Source: a virus
Virus record (IMG/VR): IMGVR_UViG_3300035698_017111
Span: 82,773 to 146,772 of that record
DNA: 64,000 bases
Direction: 5' to 3' (one strand)
This document shows, piece by piece, positions 3,124 to 60,661 of this stretch (its first letter is position 1; each line of letters opens with the position of its first letter). Under the pieces are notes generated by a model. It was not told the DNA's origin. It worked only from the letters and a program-made list of their open reading frames with translations, and did not search any database. A program made the translations under genes and the position numbers.

Positions 3124-3243
3124 GACTGGAACGGATAGTCATTACAGTGATAGCTCATTTTGGTAGAGCATCGGCCTTCAACGCCGGTTGTTATAGGTTC
3201 AATTCCTATTCACCCAAACAAACTGACTCTCAATAATCCAGTC
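3124..3243 (+). ncRNA. Closed-stem ncRNA 2 carrying a tRNA-like domain (3147-3213) with anticodon TCA
   Basis: Stems GACTGGA/TCCAGTC and AGTCA/TGACT; GAAC-N10-TACAG. D arm TAGCTCA..GGTAGAGC, anticodon arm TCGGC-CTTCAAC-GCCGG, T arm ATAGG-TTCAATT-CCTAT. The acceptor stem is only 4 bp (GTGA/TCAC). Confidence 0.8.
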
Positions 3244-3493: not shown

Positions 3494-3621
3494 TTGCTAG
3501 GAACGGCACGTTGATACAGACAAAATAGCTCAGCTGGTAGAGCTGTTGGTATTCTAACCAATAGGCGTAGGTTCAATTCCTACTCTTGTCACCTTTACTC
3601 AACTGGTAATCACCCTAGCAA
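3494..3621 (+). ncRNA. Closed-stem ncRNA 3 carrying a tRNA-like domain (3519-3591) with an 8-nt anticodon loop
   Basis: Stems TTGCTAGG/CCTAGCAA and GTTGA/TCAAC; GAAC-N10-TACAG. Acceptor GACAAAA/TCTTGTC, D arm TAGCTCAGCTGGTAGAGC, GTTGG-TATTCTAA-CCAAT, T arm GTAGG-TTCAATT-CCTAC. No encoded CCA. Confidence 0.8.
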
Positions 3622-41091: not shown

Positions 41092-41490
41092 GGGCTCGTA
41101 CTGGTTTCGACGGGAAGCAGAACGGGAAAAGCTGCAAGCCGAGCATGTCAGATCCATCTCGATAAACTGGTCTGTCAACAATAGCTGACGAAGCTATGCC
41201 AATCGCTGCCTAAGAGAACCTTAAGCAGTCGCCCTCTCTAAGTTCCGTCTGTAACGAAGAAAAGGGCGTCATCAAACAGACTCGTTCAGAGGTCTACTCC
41301 TGGGGTATCTGAACTAAAAAGCACAGGACCGCAATAACCGAATGGTAACGACAAAACGTCAGACGGCTGACGGTCGAATGAGTTGTTACAGCCATGGGGA
41401 GCGGTTACTGAAAGTGTAGCAGCCTAAGCTTGTAGACGCTTTTTCTAGACTCTTTTCGGACGGGGGTTTCGATACCCCCCGAGTCCACCA
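41092..41490 (+). ncRNA. ssrA: tmRNA; predicted tag (A)DEAMPIAA
   Basis: 5' GGGCTCG..TGGTTTCGAC and 3' GGGGGTTTCGATACCCCC-CGAGTCC-ACCA with a G3-U pair. Resume context ATAGCT-GAC; tag ORF at 41187-41213; TTGACA..TATGAT promoter upstream. Confidence 0.95.
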
Positions 41491-50311: not shown

Positions 50312-50608
50312 ATGCGTAAACACGAAATGATAAAAATTGGTTTTAAACAATCAAAATCAGAAGAAACAACTCACGATAACACAGGCAAAAAGATTGGGCA
50401 TAAATGTGTTAGGTATGTGAATTTCCCAAAACACCAATGCATTCATTGTGGAAAGAGTTTTCTTCTGGATGCGAAAGAAGTTGCAACAATGCCAATGGTT
50501 ATGGCACAATGTTATGATGATGAAGCTGAACGTGTTCCCTTCAGAGAATGGATCGTAGCAAAGATATTTACCAACACCATAGATTGTCTTAAGGGAGAAA
50601 CAGAATGA
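50312..50608 (+). CDS. Hypothetical Zn-binding protein
   Basis: HKC..HQCIHCG. Confidence 0.55.
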   Translation: MRKHEMIKIGFKQSKSEETTHDNTGKKIGHKCVRYVNFPKHQCIHCGKSFLLDAKEVATMPMVMAQCYDDEAERVPFREWIVAKIFTNTIDCLKGETE

Positions 50609-51381
50609 ATATCACAGTACTTGGTTCAGGATCAGCATTTACTCTCAACAATTACCACACATCATACCTTCTCGATCTTACCAGTGACAATGGTATTAAG
50701 CCCAAAAGGCTTTTGATTGATTGTGGTAGTGATGCCCGTCATTCTCTCAACAAAATAGGGCTCTCACAAAAAGACATCCAAGCAGTTTACATCTCACATC
50801 TCCATGGAGATCATTGTGGTGGATTGGAATGGCTAGGGTTCTCAACCTACTTCGATCCAGAATGTGATAGACCAGAACTGTTTATTCCAGAATCGTTGAT
50901 AGATCCTCTTTGGAATTCTGTCCTTAGAGGTGGTATGGAATCGGCCGAAGGAGATATTCTCCAACTTAAAGATTATTTCGGGGTATTCCCATTGGAAACA
51001 AACAGAGAAATGAATTGGTGGGGATCTGCAATCAACATCATCCAGACCCCACACATCGTTAGTGCATTCCGAACTGTATATAGCTATAGTCTTATGATCA
51101 GTATAGCGGGCAAGAAAATACTCCTTGCCATAGATACACAATTCTGTCCAGAACTAATGGAAGACTTTTACAATAAAGCAGACTTGATTTTCCATGATTG
51201 TGAAACACTGGCATTCAAATCAGATGCCCATTCTCATTATGAAGATTTGAAGACTCTGCCAGACGAAATACGAGCCAAAATGATACTCACTCATTTTCAA
51301 GACAATGGGCCAATGGACTACGACGCATGTGCGGACGGTTTTAAATGTTTCGCTGAACCGGGCATGGTTGTTGATCTGTAA
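50605..51381 (+). CDS. Metallo-beta-lactamase fold hydrolase (RNase Z / cAMP phosphodiesterase-like)
   Basis: LGSGSA, LIDCG, SHLHGDH, HDC, HSHY, LTH. Confidence 0.88.
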   Translation: MNITVLGSGSAFTLNNYHTSYLLDLTSDNGIKPKRLLIDCGSDARHSLNKIGLSQKDIQAVYISHLHGDHCGGLEWLGFSTYFDPECDRPELFIPESLIDPLWNSVLRGGMESAEGDILQLKDYFGVFPLETNREMNWWGSAINIIQTPHIVSAFRTVYSYSLMISIAGKKILLAIDTQFCPELMEDFYNKADLIFHDCETLAFKSDAHSHYEDLKTLPDEIRAKMILTHFQDNGPMDYDACADGFKCFAEPGMVVDL

Positions 51382-52213: not shown

Positions 52214-52343
52214 ATGAGGATAGATTTGGCCGAATGTTTTTTTACAAGAAATGGCTAAGAAAATTCTCTTGACAAAAATCGTATCGTTGAGTATGATTAA
52301 CATATGTAACGATACTAAGACGAACAAGACAAAGGAAACCAAG

Positions 52344-54764
52344 ATGACATCGAAAGATTTTTTATCATTTGAAAAATCAAGAGAGTTTGTTCGATCTCTT
52401 AATCTGAAAACTCAAAAAGATTGGTTTGAGTATTGTAGGTCTAGTGAAAAGCCTACCGACATTCCAGTACAACCATCCCAAATGTACCAAGACAGAGGAT
52501 GGCTTGGTTTTGGAGATTGGTTAGGTACTGCAAGTATAGCAAACCAACAAAAACAGTTCTTACCATTTGGTGAGGCAAAAGAATTTGTTCACTCTATAGG
52601 TATAGATACTGTTGTGCAGTGGAGGGAATACTGTCAATCTGGTAAAAGACCATGTAATATTCCTTCGGAACCAAGTAGAACATATTCGAATGATGGTTGG
52701 ATCTCCTGGAAAGATTGGTTAAGCAAAAGAATAGATTGTATAAATAAAAGGAGCAAACGAATGTCTGTTAAGACAAAAAAGATGAAGATTGTTAATAGTT
52801 ACGGAAACAAATTCAAGCACACCAAGAGAAAACTCAAGAAGACATACAAAAAAGGAGTCAGGGTTCCAAGAAAGTGGCAAGAGGAACTCTATCTTCAATT
52901 CAAGGAATCAGATTGGTTAAATATTATTGTCCCAACTGGCGGTGGTAAAACATTTGCTATGCAAATGCTTGCAATGGATTTTGCCGACAAGGGGTTTAAG
53001 GTTCTTTTTGCGGTTCCTCAGAATTGCATTAAAGATGAATTTATAGAGCCATTTAGCATGCAACGACCTGGTGACTCGCAGATTATCGACTGGACAGCCA
53101 AGAAAATGCCAGAAACAGCAAGAATAAAGTCTCTTAGGGAGTTTCTGAATGGCAAATACCCATTAAACAGAACGTATGACAAGATAAGGGTTATCAGTCA
53201 CAGTGCATTGTCTCGTCTTATGGGTGAGGTTACAGAAGAAGAAAAAAAAGATCTTTTCAAGAATGTTATTCTGTTTGTAGATGAAATGCATCATATTCTA
53301 AATTGTGGAAATGGTGTTGCGAATGGAATGGGACAGGTGTGTTCTTTCTTTCTTGAAAACAATCTTCCTATTTGTACTGCTACTGCCACTCCTTTTCGTG
53401 GAGATAAGGGTGAAATCATTCCAAACAAATACAGGGTAAAATTCAACGAGTATAAACTTTCTTACGTGAGACATTTCGAAGAAAATTGCAAAGGGTTGGA
53501 GTTTAAGAATTCATTTCTATTTCACGAGGGAGACTATCTCGCATGCTTGAGGGAATTTTACGATCAATTTGATATCAGAAAAGATATCATATTTATTCCA
53601 CATCCAAACCATCTAGCATCTACTGATTACAAGAAAGATGAAGAAGTAAACAAGGTGCTGCAAATACTATCCAATGGTAAACCAATCTTAGAGGTAAAAA
53701 CAGGAATCAATGCATACCAATTTACACGTAATGGTAGAAAAATTACTGTAGTCGATCTTGTGAACGAAACAAGAAGAAGAGAAACTCTATCGTACTTCAA
53801 CAGAAACAGAGAAAAAGTAGTGGATGTTGTAATTGGAATAAAAATTCCAATAGAAGGTTTTAACTGGCCGATAGCCAATAGAATCATGGCTGTTGGCCTG
53901 AGGGGAAGTCTGAATGAATTAATTCAGATGATGGGAAGATCTTTTCGACCACACAAGACCAAGGAGGATGCTAAAGAAGCCATTGAGATTTTTAACCTTC
54001 TTCCAAATATTGATGACGAAAGCCTTGGAGAGAAAAAAGAAACAGAAATGTTGACGAGTTTTAACGACATTATGAAAGGCGTTTTTACCTCTATGCTAGG
54101 TCAACTTGTTATAGATCCTGTTCTTGTGAAGATTCCAACAAGAAGTGGAGGTAAAGAAAAAGATTCAGTTGATGTTGTTAACTTAATCACGTCTCAAATT
54201 GGGGAAAATGGTCTTTTTGAATTATTTCCAGAAATCATAGGTTCTATGGTTGAGTTCAGAATGCTAAATCCAGAAGTTATTGAATCAGATCTTGAGAAAG
54301 AAGACCGTAGAATTATTGCCAAAAAAGCATACGAATTCGGAATCGATGATGAACATATCAATATTGTATGTGAAATGTTTGTGCAAATGATGATAGAGAG
54401 GGGCAAAAGTATGGTTAACGGAAAAACATCTGTTGATCGTCTTATCAAAAAAGCAAACAAAATAACCAATGGTCTCAATTCAAACGATACCGATATCGAG
54501 TTAATTACTCGTGACAAATGCCTTGGTTTCTTCCTTGCTTATGTAATAAGATGTGGAGTTAAAGACTTAAATAGGTTACACAGAATTCTCAATGGTCCAA
54601 ATCCAACCTACGAAGAGATGTTTCAAAAGAGTGTGCGTTTTTGTCACAAGTACGGCAGATATCCAAGTCCGACTGCAGATGATCCTGAAGAAAGAAGAAT
54701 TGGTCGTTGGTTGGCAGCAAGAAGAAAAGAAGGAAGAGAACTTGAGGAGAGTATTGCAAAATGA
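52344..54764 (+). CDS. SF2 (type III restriction Res-like) helicase with two N-terminal tandem repeats and a partial C-terminal HA domain
   Basis: PTGGGKT, DEMHH, TATP, EGFNWP, QMMGRSFR; N-terminal F.EA..FV.SL...W..Y..SG..P..IP..P...Y...GW..W.DWL repeats. Confidence 0.85.
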   Translation: MTSKDFLSFEKSREFVRSLNLKTQKDWFEYCRSSEKPTDIPVQPSQMYQDRGWLGFGDWLGTASIANQQKQFLPFGEAKEFVHSIGIDTVVQWREYCQSGKRPCNIPSEPSRTYSNDGWISWKDWLSKRIDCINKRSKRMSVKTKKMKIVNSYGNKFKHTKRKLKKTYKKGVRVPRKWQEELYLQFKESDWLNIIVPTGGGKTFAMQMLAMDFADKGFKVLFAVPQNCIKDEFIEPFSMQRPGDSQIIDWTAKKMPETARIKSLREFLNGKYPLNRTYDKIRVISHSALSRLMGEVTEEEKKDLFKNVILFVDEMHHILNCGNGVANGMGQVCSFFLENNLPICTATATPFRGDKGEIIPNKYRVKFNEYKLSYVRHFEENCKGLEFKNSFLFHEGDYLACLREFYDQFDIRKDIIFIPHPNHLASTDYKKDEEVNKVLQILSNGKPILEVKTGINAYQFTRNGRKITVVDLVNETRRRETLSYFNRNREKVVDVVIGIKIPIEGFNWPIANRIMAVGLRGSLNELIQMMGRSFRPHKTKEDAKEAIEIFNLLPNIDDESLGEKKETEMLTSFNDIMKGVFTSMLGQLVIDPVLVKIPTRSGGKEKDSVDVVNLITSQIGENGLFELFPEIIGSMVEFRMLNPEVIESDLEKEDRRIIAKKAYEFGIDDEHINIVCEMFVQMMIERGKSMVNGKTSVDRLIKKANKITNGLNSNDTDIELITRDKCLGFFLAYVIRCGVKDLNRLHRILNGPNPTYEEMFQKSVRFCHKYGRYPSPTADDPEERRIGRWLAARRKEGRELEESIAK

Positions 54765-55789
54765 ACAAACACCTAATAGATAAACAACGAAAAGATCTAA
54801 TGAATGAGAAGATGCCAGAGTGGTTCGACTGGGGCGTTGGCCAGGTTCTCAATGAGGAATTTTTACCATTTAATAAAGCAAAAAAGTTTGCTCGTTCCTT
54901 GAAGATTAGAGGATGTAGAGGATGGAGACAATATTGCCTTTCTGGAAATAGGTTAATTGGTATTCCACCTAGTCCAGAATGGGTTTATAAAAACAATGGA
55001 TGGTCTGGATGGAACGACTGGTTAGGTAATGAATGGAGAGAATTCGAAAGTGCAAGAGATTTTGTGCGTTCTCAAGGACTGAAGACAACGGGAGAATGGA
55101 ACAAATACAGTAAGTCTGGGGAAAAACCTAATAATATTCCTGCCGCACCAGATAAAACCTATCAAAACAAAGGATGGGTGTCTTGGGGGGATTGGATAGG
55201 TAGTGGATATGTGTCTCCTAAAAATAGGCAATATTTGTCATTCGTGGAAGCAAGGAAGATTGCACGTTCTTTGGGTTTTGGGTGCCAGGAAGATTGGATT
55301 GAGTACACAAAATCAGGAAGAAAACCAAACAATATACCAAGTAATCCATGTTCTAAATACAATGGCAATGGATGGGATGGGTATGGTGACTGGCTAGGTA
55401 CTGGAAACATCAGACCAAAAGATAGAAAATTTAGATCATTCGAAGAAGCAAGAGACTTTGTTCGATCTTTAGGTTTGGCTGGACTAAACGTTGTTGAAGA
55501 ATGGAGGAAATACTGCAAATCTGGGAATAGACCGAAAGACATACCATCCAATCCTCAAAGAACATATAAAAACAAAGGCTGGTCTGGTTTGAGCAATTGG
55601 CTTGGTAAAGAATATTTACCATTTGACGAAGCAAGAGAATTTTCACGTTCTTTGTGCCTAGGGGGGCAAAGAGAATGGACTGACTATTCTGCATCTGGTA
55701 AAAGGCCATTCAATGTTCCATCTAATCCACAGAAAATGTACAAAAATAGTGGTTGGATTAATATTGGAGATTGGTTGGGAACGAAATGA
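54761..55789 (+). CDS. Tandem-repeat protein (5 integrase-repeat-like units) with a ...PEWFDWG leader
   Basis: Five units of about 60-72 aa ending in DWLG/NWLG; ATGA-coupled to the helicase. Confidence 0.8.
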   Translation: MNKHLIDKQRKDLMNEKMPEWFDWGVGQVLNEEFLPFNKAKKFARSLKIRGCRGWRQYCLSGNRLIGIPPSPEWVYKNNGWSGWNDWLGNEWREFESARDFVRSQGLKTTGEWNKYSKSGEKPNNIPAAPDKTYQNKGWVSWGDWIGSGYVSPKNRQYLSFVEARKIARSLGFGCQEDWIEYTKSGRKPNNIPSNPCSKYNGNGWDGYGDWLGTGNIRPKDRKFRSFEEARDFVRSLGLAGLNVVEEWRKYCKSGNRPKDIPSNPQRTYKNKGWSGLSNWLGKEYLPFDEAREFSRSLCLGGQREWTDYSASGKRPFNVPSNPQKMYKNSGWINIGDWLGTK

Positions 55790-56482
55790 ACCTTAAAGAT
55801 AAAAAACGCTTCGAGAAAGAGTTCCCTGATTTCTTTGACTGGGGGCAAAGTAGATCAGAATCATTGCCGTTTGCAAAAGCAAGAGATTTTGTCCGTTCTC
55901 TTGTATTTAAAAACGCAAGAGAATGGGAAAAATATTGTAAGTCTGGAAACAAACCAAATGATATTCCGTCTTGTCCGAATGTAACATACAAGGACAAAGG
56001 ATGGACTTCGTGGGGAGATTGGTTAAATACAGGAACAATTGCTACAAATCTCAGAAAATATCTATCATTCGAAGATGCTAGAGATTTCGTTCACGATCTT
56101 AAATTGAAAAGCCAAAAAGAATGGAATAAATATACCACATCTGGAAACAAACCAGATAATATTCCATCTTGTCCGAATTTAACATACAAAGACAAAGGTT
56201 GGATAAATCATGGAGATTGGTTAGGTACTGGATTTGTTTCTACCAAACAAAGACAGTACATCTCGTTTGAGGAAGCAAAAAAACACATACATAAATTACA
56301 TATTGGAAAACAAAAAGAATGGTTTCTATATTCTAAATCAGGGAAAAGACCAAAAGACATACCAGCATCACCACATATTGTATATGAAAAATGGGTCTCC
56401 TGGTACGATTGGTTAGGCACAAAATGAACCTTAAAGAAAAACAACGCTTCGAGAAAGAGTTCCCTGATTTCTTTGACTGGGG
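55784..56482 (+). repeat. 61-nt direct repeat (55784-55844 and 56422-56482; 2 mismatches) encoding the leaders
   Basis: AAATGAACCTTAAAGA(T/A)AAA(A/C)AACGCTTCGAGAAAGAGTTCCCTGATTTCTTTGACTGGGG. Confidence 0.9.
55786..56427 (+). CDS. Tandem-repeat protein (3 units) with leader MNLKDKKRFEKEFPDFFDWG
   Basis: The ATGA overlap defines the start at 55786. Confidence 0.8.
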   Translation: MNLKDKKRFEKEFPDFFDWGQSRSESLPFAKARDFVRSLVFKNAREWEKYCKSGNKPNDIPSCPNVTYKDKGWTSWGDWLNTGTIATNLRKYLSFEDARDFVHDLKLKSQKEWNKYTTSGNKPDNIPSCPNLTYKDKGWINHGDWLGTGFVSTKQRQYISFEEAKKHIHKLHIGKQKEWFLYSKSGKRPKDIPASPHIVYEKWVSWYDWLGTK

Positions 56483-57602
56483 CGGTCAACATCAATTCTT
56501 GCCGTTCATGGAGGCGAGAGAGTTTGTTCATTCTCTTGGATTGAAATCAGTAGACGAATGGAGAAAATACTGTAAATCAGGAGATAAACCAGAAGACATT
56601 CCTGCAAATCCATGGAAGGTATATAGGGAATGGATTGGATGCGGAGATTGGTTGGGAAATGAAAAACTACCATTTGAAGAGGCAAGGGGAATCGTCCAGT
56701 CTTTAGGGTTGAAATGTCAAAGAGAATGGATAGAATTTTGTGCTTCTGGAGAAAGGCCACATAATATTCCAGCAAGCCCAGAAAACAAATACAAAGAATG
56801 GACTGGATACGGAGATTGGTTGGGAACTGGTACTATTTCTCCTCAGAACATGGTATATAGACCATTTGAGAAAGCAAGAGAATTTTCCAGAAAACTTAAG
56901 CTCAAAAAAAAAGATGATTGGATATGTTATGCTAAATCAAATCATAAGCCCAGTGATATTCCAGCATCTCCATCAAAAACCTATAGGGGGAAGGGGTGGG
57001 TGTCTTGGAAAGATTGGCTTGGTACAAACTATAGACTATTTGAAGAAGCAAGAAAATTTATTCGTTCACTCAAATTGGAAAGTTGGAAACGATATGTGAA
57101 ATCTGGTCAGTTGCCAGAAGATATTCCCAAAACCCCATGGTCGGTTTATTCTGATTGGAGAAACATGGCCGATTGGCTTGGTAGAGGAAAAATAAGCGGA
57201 AAACTTAAAGAATGGTTAGATTTTGAATCTGCAAGAAAAATTGCTCGATCTTTAGGATTAGAAAATCAAGCCGCATGGGCTTCTTATTGTAAATCTGTAA
57301 ATTTCCCACCTGATCTACCCACAAATCCACAGAGAACCTATGTTAATTGTGGATGGATTGGATATGGAGACTGGCTGGGAAACGGAAATATTGCCCCAAG
57401 ATATATGAAATACAGACCATTTACAGATGCAAGAGAATTTGTTCATTCTCTTCAGATACCGGCATTTAGGGGCACTGGAGGATGGATGGAATATTGTGCA
57501 TCTGGAAATAAACCACCAAACATTCCATCAAATCCAAATCATGTATACAGAAACAAAGGCTGGATATCTTGGCCAAATTGGCTTGGCCAAAATAAGACTT
57601 GA
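56424..57602 (+). CDS. Tandem-repeat protein (6 units) with leader MNLKEKQRFEKEFPDFFDWG
   Basis: The ATGA overlap defines the start at 56424. Confidence 0.8.
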   Translation: MNLKEKQRFEKEFPDFFDWGGQHQFLPFMEAREFVHSLGLKSVDEWRKYCKSGDKPEDIPANPWKVYREWIGCGDWLGNEKLPFEEARGIVQSLGLKCQREWIEFCASGERPHNIPASPENKYKEWTGYGDWLGTGTISPQNMVYRPFEKAREFSRKLKLKKKDDWICYAKSNHKPSDIPASPSKTYRGKGWVSWKDWLGTNYRLFEEARKFIRSLKLESWKRYVKSGQLPEDIPKTPWSVYSDWRNMADWLGRGKISGKLKEWLDFESARKIARSLGLENQAAWASYCKSVNFPPDLPTNPQRTYVNCGWIGYGDWLGNGNIAPRYMKYRPFTDAREFVHSLQIPAFRGTGGWMEYCASGNKPPNIPSNPNHVYRNKGWISWPNWLGQNKT

Positions 57603-57633: not shown

Positions 57634-58326
57634 ATGGATACACTGCCAAAATTCTACTCCTGCCCAAAGAAATTCCGTGCCCGACAAGACACTATCATTT
57701 GGGTATACAGAAAACTGTTCTCATATAGAATTCCACTAGGAGAGCAGTACTGGACCATGTGCGGTCCCCATTCAGACAATGGCGTACTTCCTGAAGGGTC
57801 TGAGCTCATACAACTCGTCAAAGCAGGGCTAATAACCTTAGATCAATTCCATGGAGTGGACATCAATTCCGAAACAATACGAGCAAATCAAGAGGCAGAA
57901 CCCAGAGCAACATGGATCAACGCAGATATTTACGATGCAATGAATGGACACTTCGGCCGCAATGAACTTAACCCTGCAATCGTCTACGCAGATTTCATTA
58001 GCATGAAACGTTATGGATGTCAGAAAACAACAGAACTCTTACATTTGTTAAATGACTTGGATAAAGAAAACATTTTACTTGTATGCAACATTATGATGAA
58101 CAATCCTCATGAAAGGGGAATGAATTTTCATGAAACATTAAAGAAAGCAGATGATGAATTTGTTCTAATGGAATTCGAGGAAAATAATTTGTTTCAATTC
58201 ATATGGTCTGGAGGAAATTGGAAAAACTATGACGCCTGGTATGTCTACGAGGGAACGGGTGAAAAATCCAGAACTGTAATGGGAACGTTTTTCTTTTATA
58301 GAAAATCTAAGAAAGGAGAAATCTAA
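57634..58326 (+). CDS. Hypothetical protein, possibly SAM-dependent methyltransferase fold
   Basis: FHGVDINSETI, WINADI and IVYADF resemble Rossmann MTase strands. Confidence 0.45.
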   Translation: MDTLPKFYSCPKKFRARQDTIIWVYRKLFSYRIPLGEQYWTMCGPHSDNGVLPEGSELIQLVKAGLITLDQFHGVDINSETIRANQEAEPRATWINADIYDAMNGHFGRNELNPAIVYADFISMKRYGCQKTTELLHLLNDLDKENILLVCNIMMNNPHERGMNFHETLKKADDEFVLMEFEENNLFQFIWSGGNWKNYDAWYVYEGTGEKSRTVMGTFFFYRKSKKGEI

Positions 58327-60223: not shown

Positions 60224-60661
60224 ATGGAAAAACAAAAACTACTAATTGCAACAGTTGGACTCCCTAAGAGTGGGAAGTCTACTTGGGCTCTTACTCAAAA
60301 CCTACCCATAGTGAGTCCAAGTAGCATCCGTCGTGCAATGTACGGAGAGAGATTCCTACTACAAGCAGAACCATGGGTGTGGACAATGGCCAAAACAATG
60401 GTCGAAGCACTGTTTCTGGCCGGACACAAATCTGTTATCCTAGACTGTTCGAATGTAAGACGAAGAAATCGTGATCAATGGAAATCTGAAAAATGGAAGA
60501 CTGTATTCGTCAACATTAAAACACCTAAAGAAGTATGCCTCGCCAGAGCAACAGAGAATGGTGATGAGTCAATAAAAATGATGATCGAAGCCATGGACGA
60601 GGACTTTGAACCCTTGGACGACGATGAGAAATGTCAACTGTCAACAAAATACTACCCGTAG
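60224..60661 (+). CDS. Polynucleotide-kinase-like P-loop kinase (AAA_33)
   Basis: VGLPKSGKSTWA, SPSSIR, VILDCSN..R..R, EVCLARA. Confidence 0.85.
   Translation: MEKQKLLIATVGLPKSGKSTWALTQNLPIVSPSSIRRAMYGERFLLQAEPWVWTMAKTMVEALFLAGHKSVILDCSNVRRRNRDQWKSEKWKTVFVNIKTPKEVCLARATENGDESIKMMIEAMDEDFEPLDDDEKCQLSTKYYP

What the first reader, a model, noticed from the sequence alone, without database searches (positions are those of the whole stretch)
52344..57602. Helicase plus three translationally coupled repeat proteins whose leaders look like the missing half of its HA domain
Seen: the helicase ends YEEMFQKSVRFCHKYGRYPS..DDPEERRIGRWLAARRK.. and stops. Three ATGA-coupled genes follow, each made only of 5, 3 or 6 tandem repeats behind a leader (IDKQRKDLMNEKMPEWFDWG; LKDKKRFEKEFPDFFDWG; LKEKQRFEKEFPDFFDWG). 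Two leaders are 59/61 nt identical while the repeats are diverged. Established: helicase-associated HA repeats run W..Y..L..F...G..P.....LG.W...QR....L..ER...L...GF.W. Inference: the last helix (L..xR..L/F....F.W) is supplied in trans by the leaders, making a split-domain dock through which one motor uses interchangeable DNA-recognition subunits. A second SD+ATG at 52761 could also produce a helicase without its own two repeats. The 61-nt repeat could allow cassette shuffling.
Basis: partly seen in the sequence, partly recalled or inferred. Interest (0 to 1): 0.8.

Follow-up and report, generated by a model that had tools for sequence, protein, structure and literature searches.

The report
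Split helicase-associated domain docking module
A phage helicase stops two-thirds of the way through a small three-helix domain, and each of the three repeat proteins encoded right after it begins with what looks like the missing helix; the same split recurs in about fifteen related viral loci and probably clips alternative repeat-array subunits onto one motor.

Summary
An SF2 helicase (52344-54764) ends inside a helicase-associated (HA) domain: Pfam and my own HA profile cover only helices 1-2, and AlphaFold2 gives two helices with no fold-back. Three ATGA-overlapping genes follow, with 5, 3 and 6 INT_rpt repeats. Each starts with a 20-25 aa leader.

The leader-as-missing-helix idea is supported by comparison, not by the window's own leaders. 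Alone they are not significantly HA-like (P 0.07, though at the right place). In related loci the same helicase family is split inside HA again and again. The break falls after helix 1 or after helix 2, in all three reading frames, and the next gene always starts with the complementary piece. A pooled leader profile aligns to HA helix 3 (P 3e-4; 0 of 200 shuffles reach it).

Other relatives carry complete HA arrays, or INT_rpt arrays fused covalently at the same point. Leaders are homogenised within a genome and diverge fast between genomes.

Binding itself could not be tested because the complex predictor was unavailable. DNA recognition by the repeats and cassette shuffling remain unsupported. 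The most likely reading is a naturally split domain that acts as a dock. This looks like a new variant built from known parts.

The parts
52344..54764 (+). SF2 helicase, 806 aa from the ATG at 52344 (an alternative ATG lies at 52251)
   Evidence: ResIII 36.8 bits, Helicase_C 25.2 bits, both above cut-off; PHROG 16 DNA helicase, E 1.7e-14; four homologues at 31-41% identity
52359..52727 (+). two INT_rpt repeats fused to the helicase N-terminus; relatives P0001 and the L009 helicase lack them
52750..52763 (+). in-frame GGAG plus ATG; a possible internal start giving a helicase without the two repeats (unproven)
   Evidence: P0001 begins at the equivalent position
54609..54761 (+). half HA domain: helices 1 and 2 plus a 10-12 aa tail, with helix 3 missing
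   Evidence: Pfam HA profile positions 5-48 of 64; own HA profile positions 3-43 of 68, 26 bits; AF2 gives two helices at pLDDT 84-89, falling to 59 in the tail
54761..55789 (+). rptA: 25-aa leader (54761-54835) plus 5 INT_rpt repeats; ATGA overlap with the helicase stop
55786..56427 (+). rptB: 20-aa leader (55786-55845) plus 3 INT_rpt repeats; ATGA overlap
   Evidence: AF2: repeats pLDDT 96-98, leader helix aa 3-12 pLDDT 82, aa 11-20 pLDDT 65
56424..57602 (+). rptC: 20-aa leader (56424-56483) plus 6 INT_rpt repeats; ATGA overlap
55769..55844 (+). 76-nt direct repeat, copy 1 (end of rptA plus the rptB leader)
   Evidence: family D13, 93% identity
56407..56482 (+). 76-nt direct repeat, copy 2 (end of rptB plus the rptC leader)
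   Evidence: family D13
57634..58326 (+). conserved 230-aa gene that follows the helicase module in relatives (L002, L019, L024); class I SAM methyltransferase-like fold (a lead only)
   Evidence: Atlas structure matches at TM 0.58-0.64 to methyltransferase clusters; no Pfam hit

Best explanation
The helicase and the three INT_rpt proteins are parts of one machine, joined through a naturally split HA domain. The helicase carries HA helices 1-2 at its C-terminus. Each repeat protein carries, as its first 20-25 residues, the equivalent of HA helix 3: an amphipathic helix followed by a Pro-x-aromatic ... Trp motif. Insertion of a leader into the two-helix hairpin would rebuild the three-helix bundle and tether a repeat array to the motor without a covalent bond. 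In other members of the family that link is a peptide bond. Overlapping stop/start codons (ATGA) couple synthesis of the partners. Because three paralogues carry near-identical leaders and the genome has only one half-HA, they most likely compete for, or alternate at, one site. Shown here: the truncated HA, the recurrent complementary split, the covalent fusions in relatives, and the within-genome homogenisation of leaders. Inferred: physical binding, alternation of the three subunits, and any nucleic-acid-binding role of the arrays.
For: 1. The helicase HA is truncated: Pfam positions 5-48 of 64, own profile 3-43 of 68, AF2 two helices only, and it is the only HA match in the 146.8-kb genome.

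2. The closest relative, P0001/L001 (41% identity), stops at the same HA position (profile 1-44, 42 bits). Its ATGA-coupled next gene starts with profile positions 47-66 (12.5 bits), followed by INT_rpt repeats.

3. Among 45 further loci of the family, the split recurs after helix 2 in L009=L026, L041, L014, L015, L040 and L044. It recurs after helix 1 in L029, L046, L052 and L042, where the partner N-termini cover profile positions 17-31 to 65-67 at 33-50 bits, and more weakly in L048 and L049-51. Start-to-stop offsets of -23 to +67 nt use all three frames.

4. Complete HA arrays are fused to the helicase in P0002, P0003 and L016.

5. Rosetta stones: P0142, P0161, P0199, P0208, P0004 and L024 fuse INT_rpt arrays covalently, directly after the conserved helicase motif where the window has its half-HA. 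P0200 is HA helices 2-3 (33 bits) followed by 11 INT_rpt repeats.

6. The pooled 10-leader profile aligns to HA columns 45/47-69 only, with P 3.2e-4 and score 19.2, against 200 column shuffles with mean 7.4 and maximum 14.2. Against the INT_rpt unit the same profile gives P 0.07.

7. Within genomes, leaders are 71-96% identical between paralogues (52-54% for rptA against rptB/rptC) and first repeats 46-82%. Between genomes, leaders are 11-33% identical and repeats 43-62%. This fits co-evolution with one genome-specific partner.

8. AF2 does not pack the rptB leader confidently on its own repeats: pLDDT 65-82 against 96-98.
Against: The window's own leaders are not significantly HA-like. Virtual helicase-tail-plus-leader fusions score no better against the HA profile than fusions with 88 unrelated N-termini or with shuffled leaders. 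A window-only leader profile gives P 0.066, and rptB+rptC alone align elsewhere with P 0.39. No binding test was possible. Synonymous sites in the leaders are almost all identical between paralogues (17/18, 18/18, 20/22), which points to gene conversion or nucleotide-level constraint rather than protein-level selection alone. One half-HA for three leaders implies competition, for which there is no evidence. Some family members have neither HA nor a leader-bearing neighbour (L012, L013, L022, L039).
Confidence: 0.62

Rival explanations
1. Neutral gene fission with no dock. The leaders are leftovers of an ancestral fused HA. They are kept because the first ~60 nt of each gene, plus the end of the preceding gene, are needed for termination-reinitiation, and they are homogenised by gene conversion. 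The repeat proteins act independently of the helicase.
For: Synonymous sites in leaders are nearly invariant between paralogues. The 76-nt repeat spans the stop/start junction. The window's leaders have drifted out of significant HA similarity.
Against: Leaders keep a protein-level pattern (amphipathic helix plus Pro-x-aromatic-x-x-aromatic) across genomes whose DNA is unrelated. Complementary fragments remain strongly HA-like on both sides in other loci, at 33-50 bits. An isolated one- or two-helix fragment of a three-helix bundle has no obvious reason to be conserved. Covalent fusions show that the helicase and the arrays work together.
Confidence: 0.15
2. The leader is an N-terminal cap or partial repeat of the INT_rpt array itself. 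Its final FDWG would mimic the DWLG tail that precedes every repeat, and it would have nothing to do with the helicase.
For: The spacing from the leader's FDWG to the first repeat resembles the short inter-repeat linker. hhalign places leader residues 9-21 on the unit tail. INT_rpt and HA show a weak collinear similarity with P 0.04.
Against: That alignment is weak (P 0.07, probability 0.8%), against P 3e-4 for HA helix 3. About 110 of 120 INT_rpt homologues start directly with a repeat and have no leader. AF2 does not pack the leader confidently. Leader-bearing genes sit next to truncated-HA helicases.
Confidence: 0.1
3. Programmed -1 frameshifting or read-through at the junctions makes covalent helicase-rptA (and longer) fusion proteins, so the HA domain is really continuous.
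For: rptA lies in the -1 frame. A one-tRNA slip is conceivable at the A_AAA_TGA junction (54758-54764), and the same junction is present in L001.
Against: There is no X_XXY_YYZ heptamer. The rptA frame is closed by TGA at 54743-54745, which leaves an 18-nt window. There is no structure downstream of any junction (z 0.45, 0.42, -0.05). Related split loci use all three frames and offsets from -23 to +67 nt. The rptA/rptB junction is G_AAA_TGA. Fusing rptA to rptB or rptB to rptC would not rebuild an HA domain.
Confidence: 0.06
4. Head-to-tail chain: each leader binds the C-terminal end of the protein encoded before it, assembling one long non-covalent 16-repeat array.
For: Gene order; each leader follows a protein end.
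Against: rptA and rptB end in complete repeat units with nothing missing. In L009, leader-bearing genes lie upstream of the helicase and are not all adjacent.
Confidence: 0.04

Closest known systems
HA, helicase-associated domain (Pfam PF03457; NMR structure 2KTA of Bacteroides vulgatus BVU_0683, Mills et al. 2013, cited in PMC12191111 ref. 64, whose title reports DNA binding)
   Same: It lies at the C-terminus of an SF2 helicase. Helices 1-2 match the profile. HA repeats of relative P0003 hit 2kta_A at E 7e-5.
   Different: Here the domain is cut by a gene boundary, and helix 3 is encoded at the start of the next genes. The match is below Pfam's gathering score. I found no description of a split HA in the paper library.
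INT_rpt, integrase repeat unit (Pfam PF14882)
   Same: All three downstream proteins and the helicase N-terminus consist of 58-66 aa units of this family. There are 8111 cluster representatives at E<=1e-3.
   Different: About 110 of 120 homologues examined have no leader. Function and fold are unknown: the best PDB match is Z 2.8.
Covalently fused members of the same helicase family (P0002/P0003 with 6-10 HA repeats; P0142, P0161, P0199, P0208, P0004 and L024 with INT_rpt arrays)
   Same: Same helicase core (24-42% identity), with the array attached at the same point. The same methyltransferase-like gene follows in L002, L019 and L024.
   Different: They are one polypeptide; the window has four polypeptides and a split junction domain.
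Docking domains of modular polyketide synthases / NRPS COM domains (own knowledge, analogy only)
   Same: C-terminal helices of one polypeptide and an N-terminal helix of the next, encoded in order, form a small helical bundle that joins the subunits.
   Different: No sequence relation. Here the bundle is a recognisable, otherwise autonomous domain, and several alternative partners share one dock.
Type I restriction-modification specificity (HsdS) subunits (own knowledge, analogy only)
   Same: One motor with exchangeable target-recognition subunits, and repeat-flanked cassettes.
   Different: There is no HsdS/HsdM/HsdR homology. PADLOC gives only generic helicase similarity, with PbeA best at E 7e-9. 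Target recognition by INT_rpt is unproven.

Membership tests
SF2 helicase (ResIII + Helicase_C) | Both RecA-like domains match above the Pfam gathering scores | tested here: met
   ResIII 36.8 against 22.5; Helicase_C 25.2 against 23.5
HA domain PF03457 | Match to the whole profile above the gathering score (28.4 bits) | tested here: not met
   17.8 bits over positions 5-48 of 64; 22.8 bits over positions 5-50
HA domain PF03457 | Complete three-helix unit in one polypeptide | tested here: not met
   Own HA profile covers 3-43 of 68. AF2 gives two helices only. Relatives P0002/P0003 have the full unit.
HA domain PF03457 (leaders as helix 3) | Leaders align significantly to the third-helix columns of HA | tested here: inconclusive
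   Pooled profile of 10 leaders: P 3.2e-4, 0 of 200 shuffles reach it. Window leaders alone: P 0.066. HMM fusion test no better than controls.
INT_rpt PF14882 | Match above the gathering score (26.5 bits); tandem units of about 55-65 aa | tested here: met
   29.3, 28.5 and 33.5 bits; 16 units of 58-66 aa; 262 homologues
Split-domain dock (fragment complementation between helicase and partners) | The two fragments bind and rebuild the fold | not testable with these tools
Split-domain dock | Complementary fragments co-occur across relatives, and fused forms exist | tested here: met
   About 15 distinct split loci with two break points; fused forms also found
Programmed -1 ribosomal frameshift | Slippery heptamer and a downstream stimulatory structure | tested here: not met
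   No heptamer; fold z-scores about 0; frames vary among relatives
Type I R-M-like motor with specificity subunits | Homology to HsdR/HsdS/HsdM | tested here: not met
   No such hits in Pfam, NCBIfam or PADLOC

The most novel reading that the evidence does not exclude
A whole family of phage SF2 helicases uses a naturally split three-helix HA domain as a plug-and-socket joint. One motor can then be loaded with any of several paralogous repeat arrays (INT_rpt, HA or related units) that act as exchangeable target-recognition subunits. Leaders and socket co-evolve within each genome, and repeat-flanked cassettes are gained and lost.
Probability: 0.3. Interest if true: 0.8.

Novelty: new variant of a known kind. 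Interest (0 to 1): 0.62.

Why it matters
If the dock is real, it is a natural, recurrent case of protein-fragment complementation used to assemble a modular enzyme. A small autonomous domain would be cut at either of two loops and rebuilt from neighbouring gene products. That would give a first functional handle on two widespread but uncharacterised repeat families: HA, and INT_rpt with more than 8000 cluster representatives. It would also tie them to a phage helicase/methyltransferase-like module next to an anti-defence gene. A compact three-helix split tag of this kind could be useful as a tool. It also shows that gene-by-gene domain annotation misses such architecture: the helicase HA hit falls below threshold, and the leaders are invisible to Pfam.

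Tried and rejected
- Pfam on the 40-aa leaders gave nothing.
- A first related-locus scan with the single helicase sequence found nothing. blastn against phage records found no match.
- Back-translated leader patterns in IMG/VR gave 0 hits, then 10 chance hits with no relation to the locus. No close relative was therefore available to test cassette-number variation.
- Foldseek and VIA searches of the rptB model (best Z 2.8) and of the helicase C-terminal model (best Z 7.3, generic helical matches on residues 1-133) gave no informative fold.
- A sequence search of solved structures with rptB found nothing.
- HMM scoring of virtual helicase-tail-plus-leader fusions was no better than controls.
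- Literature searches for a split HA domain or for INT_rpt function found nothing relevant. PMC3637686 is not held.
- NCBIfam and PADLOC gave only generic helicase similarity.
Full report
**What is there.** The window is the last 64 kb of a 146.8-kb IMG/VR virus record, estimated 77% complete. The region holds four co-directional genes:
- an 806-aa protein at 52344-54764;
- rptA at 54761-55789;
- rptB at 55786-56427;
- rptC at 56424-57602.

Each junction is an ATGA stop/start overlap. The first protein is an SF2 helicase: ResIII and Helicase_C are both above their Pfam cut-offs, and PHROG 16 matches. It carries two INT_rpt repeats at its N-terminus. The three downstream proteins are INT_rpt arrays of 5, 3 and 6 units of 58-66 aa, so there are 16 units in all. 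They are basic, with pI 9.4-9.6. Each array is preceded by a 20-25 aa leader.

**Sequence details.** The leaders of rptB and rptC share 57 of the first 59 nt. They belong to a 76-nt direct repeat, 71/76 identical, that also covers the last 17 nt of the preceding gene. The adjoining repeats are about 65% identical. The in-frame GGAG plus ATG at 52761 exists, and the nearest relative starts at about that point.

**The helicase ends inside an HA domain.** Pfam places HA on aa 756-799, covering profile positions 5-48 of 64, below the gathering score. A six-frame search of the whole genome finds this as the only HA match, over positions 5-50. I built an HA profile from 42 complete repeats in related loci; it covers positions 3-43 of 68 at 26 bits. 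AlphaFold2 on the last 246 aa gives helix 756-770 and one long helix 781-805, at pLDDT 84-89 falling to 59 in the tail. There is no third helix folding back. In relatives P0002 and P0003 the same position holds 6-10 complete HA units whose third helix ends in a Gly-Trp-x-Trp motif.

**The split is a family trait.** The helicase family is rare, with only four hits in the 5.8-billion-protein search.
- The closest relative, P0001 (41% identity, locus L001), stops at the same HA position (profile 1-44, 42 bits). Its ATGA-coupled next gene opens with HA positions 47-66 (12.5 bits) and then INT_rpt repeats.
- Profile-guided scans gave 45 more loci.
- In L009=L026, L041, L014, L015, L040 and L044 the helicase ends shortly after helix 2, and the next gene starts with a helix-3-like leader.
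- In L029, L046, L052 and L042 the helicase ends after helix 1, and the next gene starts with helices 2-3. These partner N-termini cover profile positions 17-31 to 65-67 at 33-50 bits. L048 and L049-51 do the same more weakly.
- Start-to-stop offsets run from -23 to +67 nt and use all three frames, so no single recoding mechanism explains the pattern.
- In every case the two pieces add up to one HA unit.
- Partner proteins are arrays of INT_rpt, HA or other small helical units.
- Several loci carry two or three paralogues with the same leader: L004, L009 and L041.

**Rosetta-stone fusions.** A profile search of 1.84 billion cluster representatives found INT_rpt in 8111 of them. Among the top 150, P0142, P0161, P0199 and P0208 are helicases of this family with the INT_rpt array fused directly after the conserved helicase motif that precedes the half-HA in the window. 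P0004 and L024 are built the same way. P0200 is HA helices 2-3 (33 bits) followed by 11 INT_rpt units. So helicase and array work as one unit, joined covalently in some lineages and, I infer, through the split HA in others. A methyltransferase-like gene follows the module in the window, L002, L019 and L024.

**Are the leaders HA helix 3?**
- Pooled over ten leaders from four lineages, hhalign places them on HA columns 45/47-69 only. The P-value is 3.2e-4 and the score 19.2, against 200 column-shuffled profiles with mean 7.4, sd 1.9 and maximum 14.2.
- The rival placement on the tail of an INT_rpt unit gives P 0.07.
- The signal comes mostly from the relatives: the L009 family alone gives P 1.2e-4, while the window's three leaders give P 0.066 at the right columns, and rptB+rptC alone fail.
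- Virtual tail-plus-leader fusions from the window score no better against the HA profile than controls.

For this window the assignment therefore rests on positional homology with L001 and the family pattern, not on the window's own sequences.

**Evolutionary pattern.** In most paralogue pairs within a genome the leaders are more alike than the adjoining repeats: 71-96% against 55-82% at the protein level; the window's rptA leader is only 52-54% identical to rptB/rptC. Almost all synonymous sites in the leaders are identical. Between genomes, leaders are 11-33% identical and repeats 43-62%. This fits co-evolution of all leaders in a genome with one genome-specific socket. It also fits gene conversion or constraint on the reinitiation region, so it does not separate those readings. 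AlphaFold2 models the rptB repeats at pLDDT 96-98 but the leader at only 65-82, with a helix at aa 3-12. That gives no support to a tightly packed N-cap.

**Rivals.**
- Frameshift fusion is unlikely. There is no slippery heptamer, the rptA frame is closed 18 nt upstream of its ATG, no structure follows any junction (z about 0), and the frames vary among relatives.
- Neutral fission with vestigial leaders is the main rival. It is hard to square with strong conservation of both HA fragments in other loci.
- The N-cap and head-to-tail chain models have little support.

**What remains open.** Binding was not tested, because the complex predictor was unavailable. The INT_rpt fold matched nothing solved, so 'DNA recognition' is an assumption. 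It rests only on basic charge and on the reported DNA binding of HA, which I know from the title of Mills et al. 2013 as cited in PMC12191111. No close relative was found to test cassette gain or loss.

**Verdict.** This is a real and recurrent architecture. It is most likely a split HA domain acting as a dock between one helicase and several repeat-array subunits (confidence 0.62). It is built from known families, but I could not find this arrangement described.

Noticed in passing
window 50605-51381 (+): A metallo-beta-lactamase-fold protein matches Anti-Pycsar Apyc1 (PF23023, E 7e-28, 98 bits against a cut-off of 50). This is an anti-defence nuclease candidate about 1 kb upstream of the helicase module.
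   Followed up: no
window 57634-58326 (+): A 230-aa protein with no Pfam hit. It belongs to a phage-specific cluster of 483 members, and its Atlas model resembles class I SAM methyltransferases (TM 0.58-0.64). It is syntenic with the helicase in L002, L019 and L024.
   Followed up: partly
window 60224-60661 (+): A small AAA_33 P-loop kinase-like protein (E 4.6e-9) lies downstream of the module.
   Followed up: no
window 3145-3216, 3519-3593, 41092-41490 (+): ARAGORN calls a tRNA-SeC-like gene, an odd tRNA with a two-base anticodon, and a tmRNA-like gene with a tag peptide. None was verified with Rfam.
   Followed up: no
INT_rpt units against HA units (window 52359-57590; L002 9864-11111): Profile-profile comparison gives a weak collinear similarity between a whole INT_rpt unit and a whole HA unit (P 0.04, probability 1%): helix 1 to helix 1, the Trp helix to the LG-W helix, and the GW-x-W tails to each other. 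This may be a distant common origin; it is not established.
   Followed up: partly
L014 6724-8085; L040 2756-3328; L030 6705-8408; L037 7154-8443: Partners of related helicases are arrays of other small helical repeats: a K-x-GE-x-KP ... PDWF type, a PEEW ... LP ... PDLF type, and an INT_rpt-like LEEH type. L037 mixes two types in one protein.
   Followed up: no
L011 8183-9409 and L055 2319-3545: In these loci the helicase's HA-like end is followed, 119 nt later, by a 408-aa ORF whose N-terminus looks like a TnpB/OrfB-type transposon protein (from memory, not tested).
   Followed up: no
L017 2397-3443: The gene after a helicase with a complete C-terminal HA starts at HA profile position 15, so it lacks helix 1 and has no obvious donor. 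This could be a different split or an assembly frameshift in a long HA array.
   Followed up: no
one search hit list: Many INT_rpt homologues carry source names from ammonia-oxidising archaea (Nitrosopumilus, Nitrososphaeraceae) and from marine metagenomes. This may hint at the ecological setting of the family.
   Followed up: no
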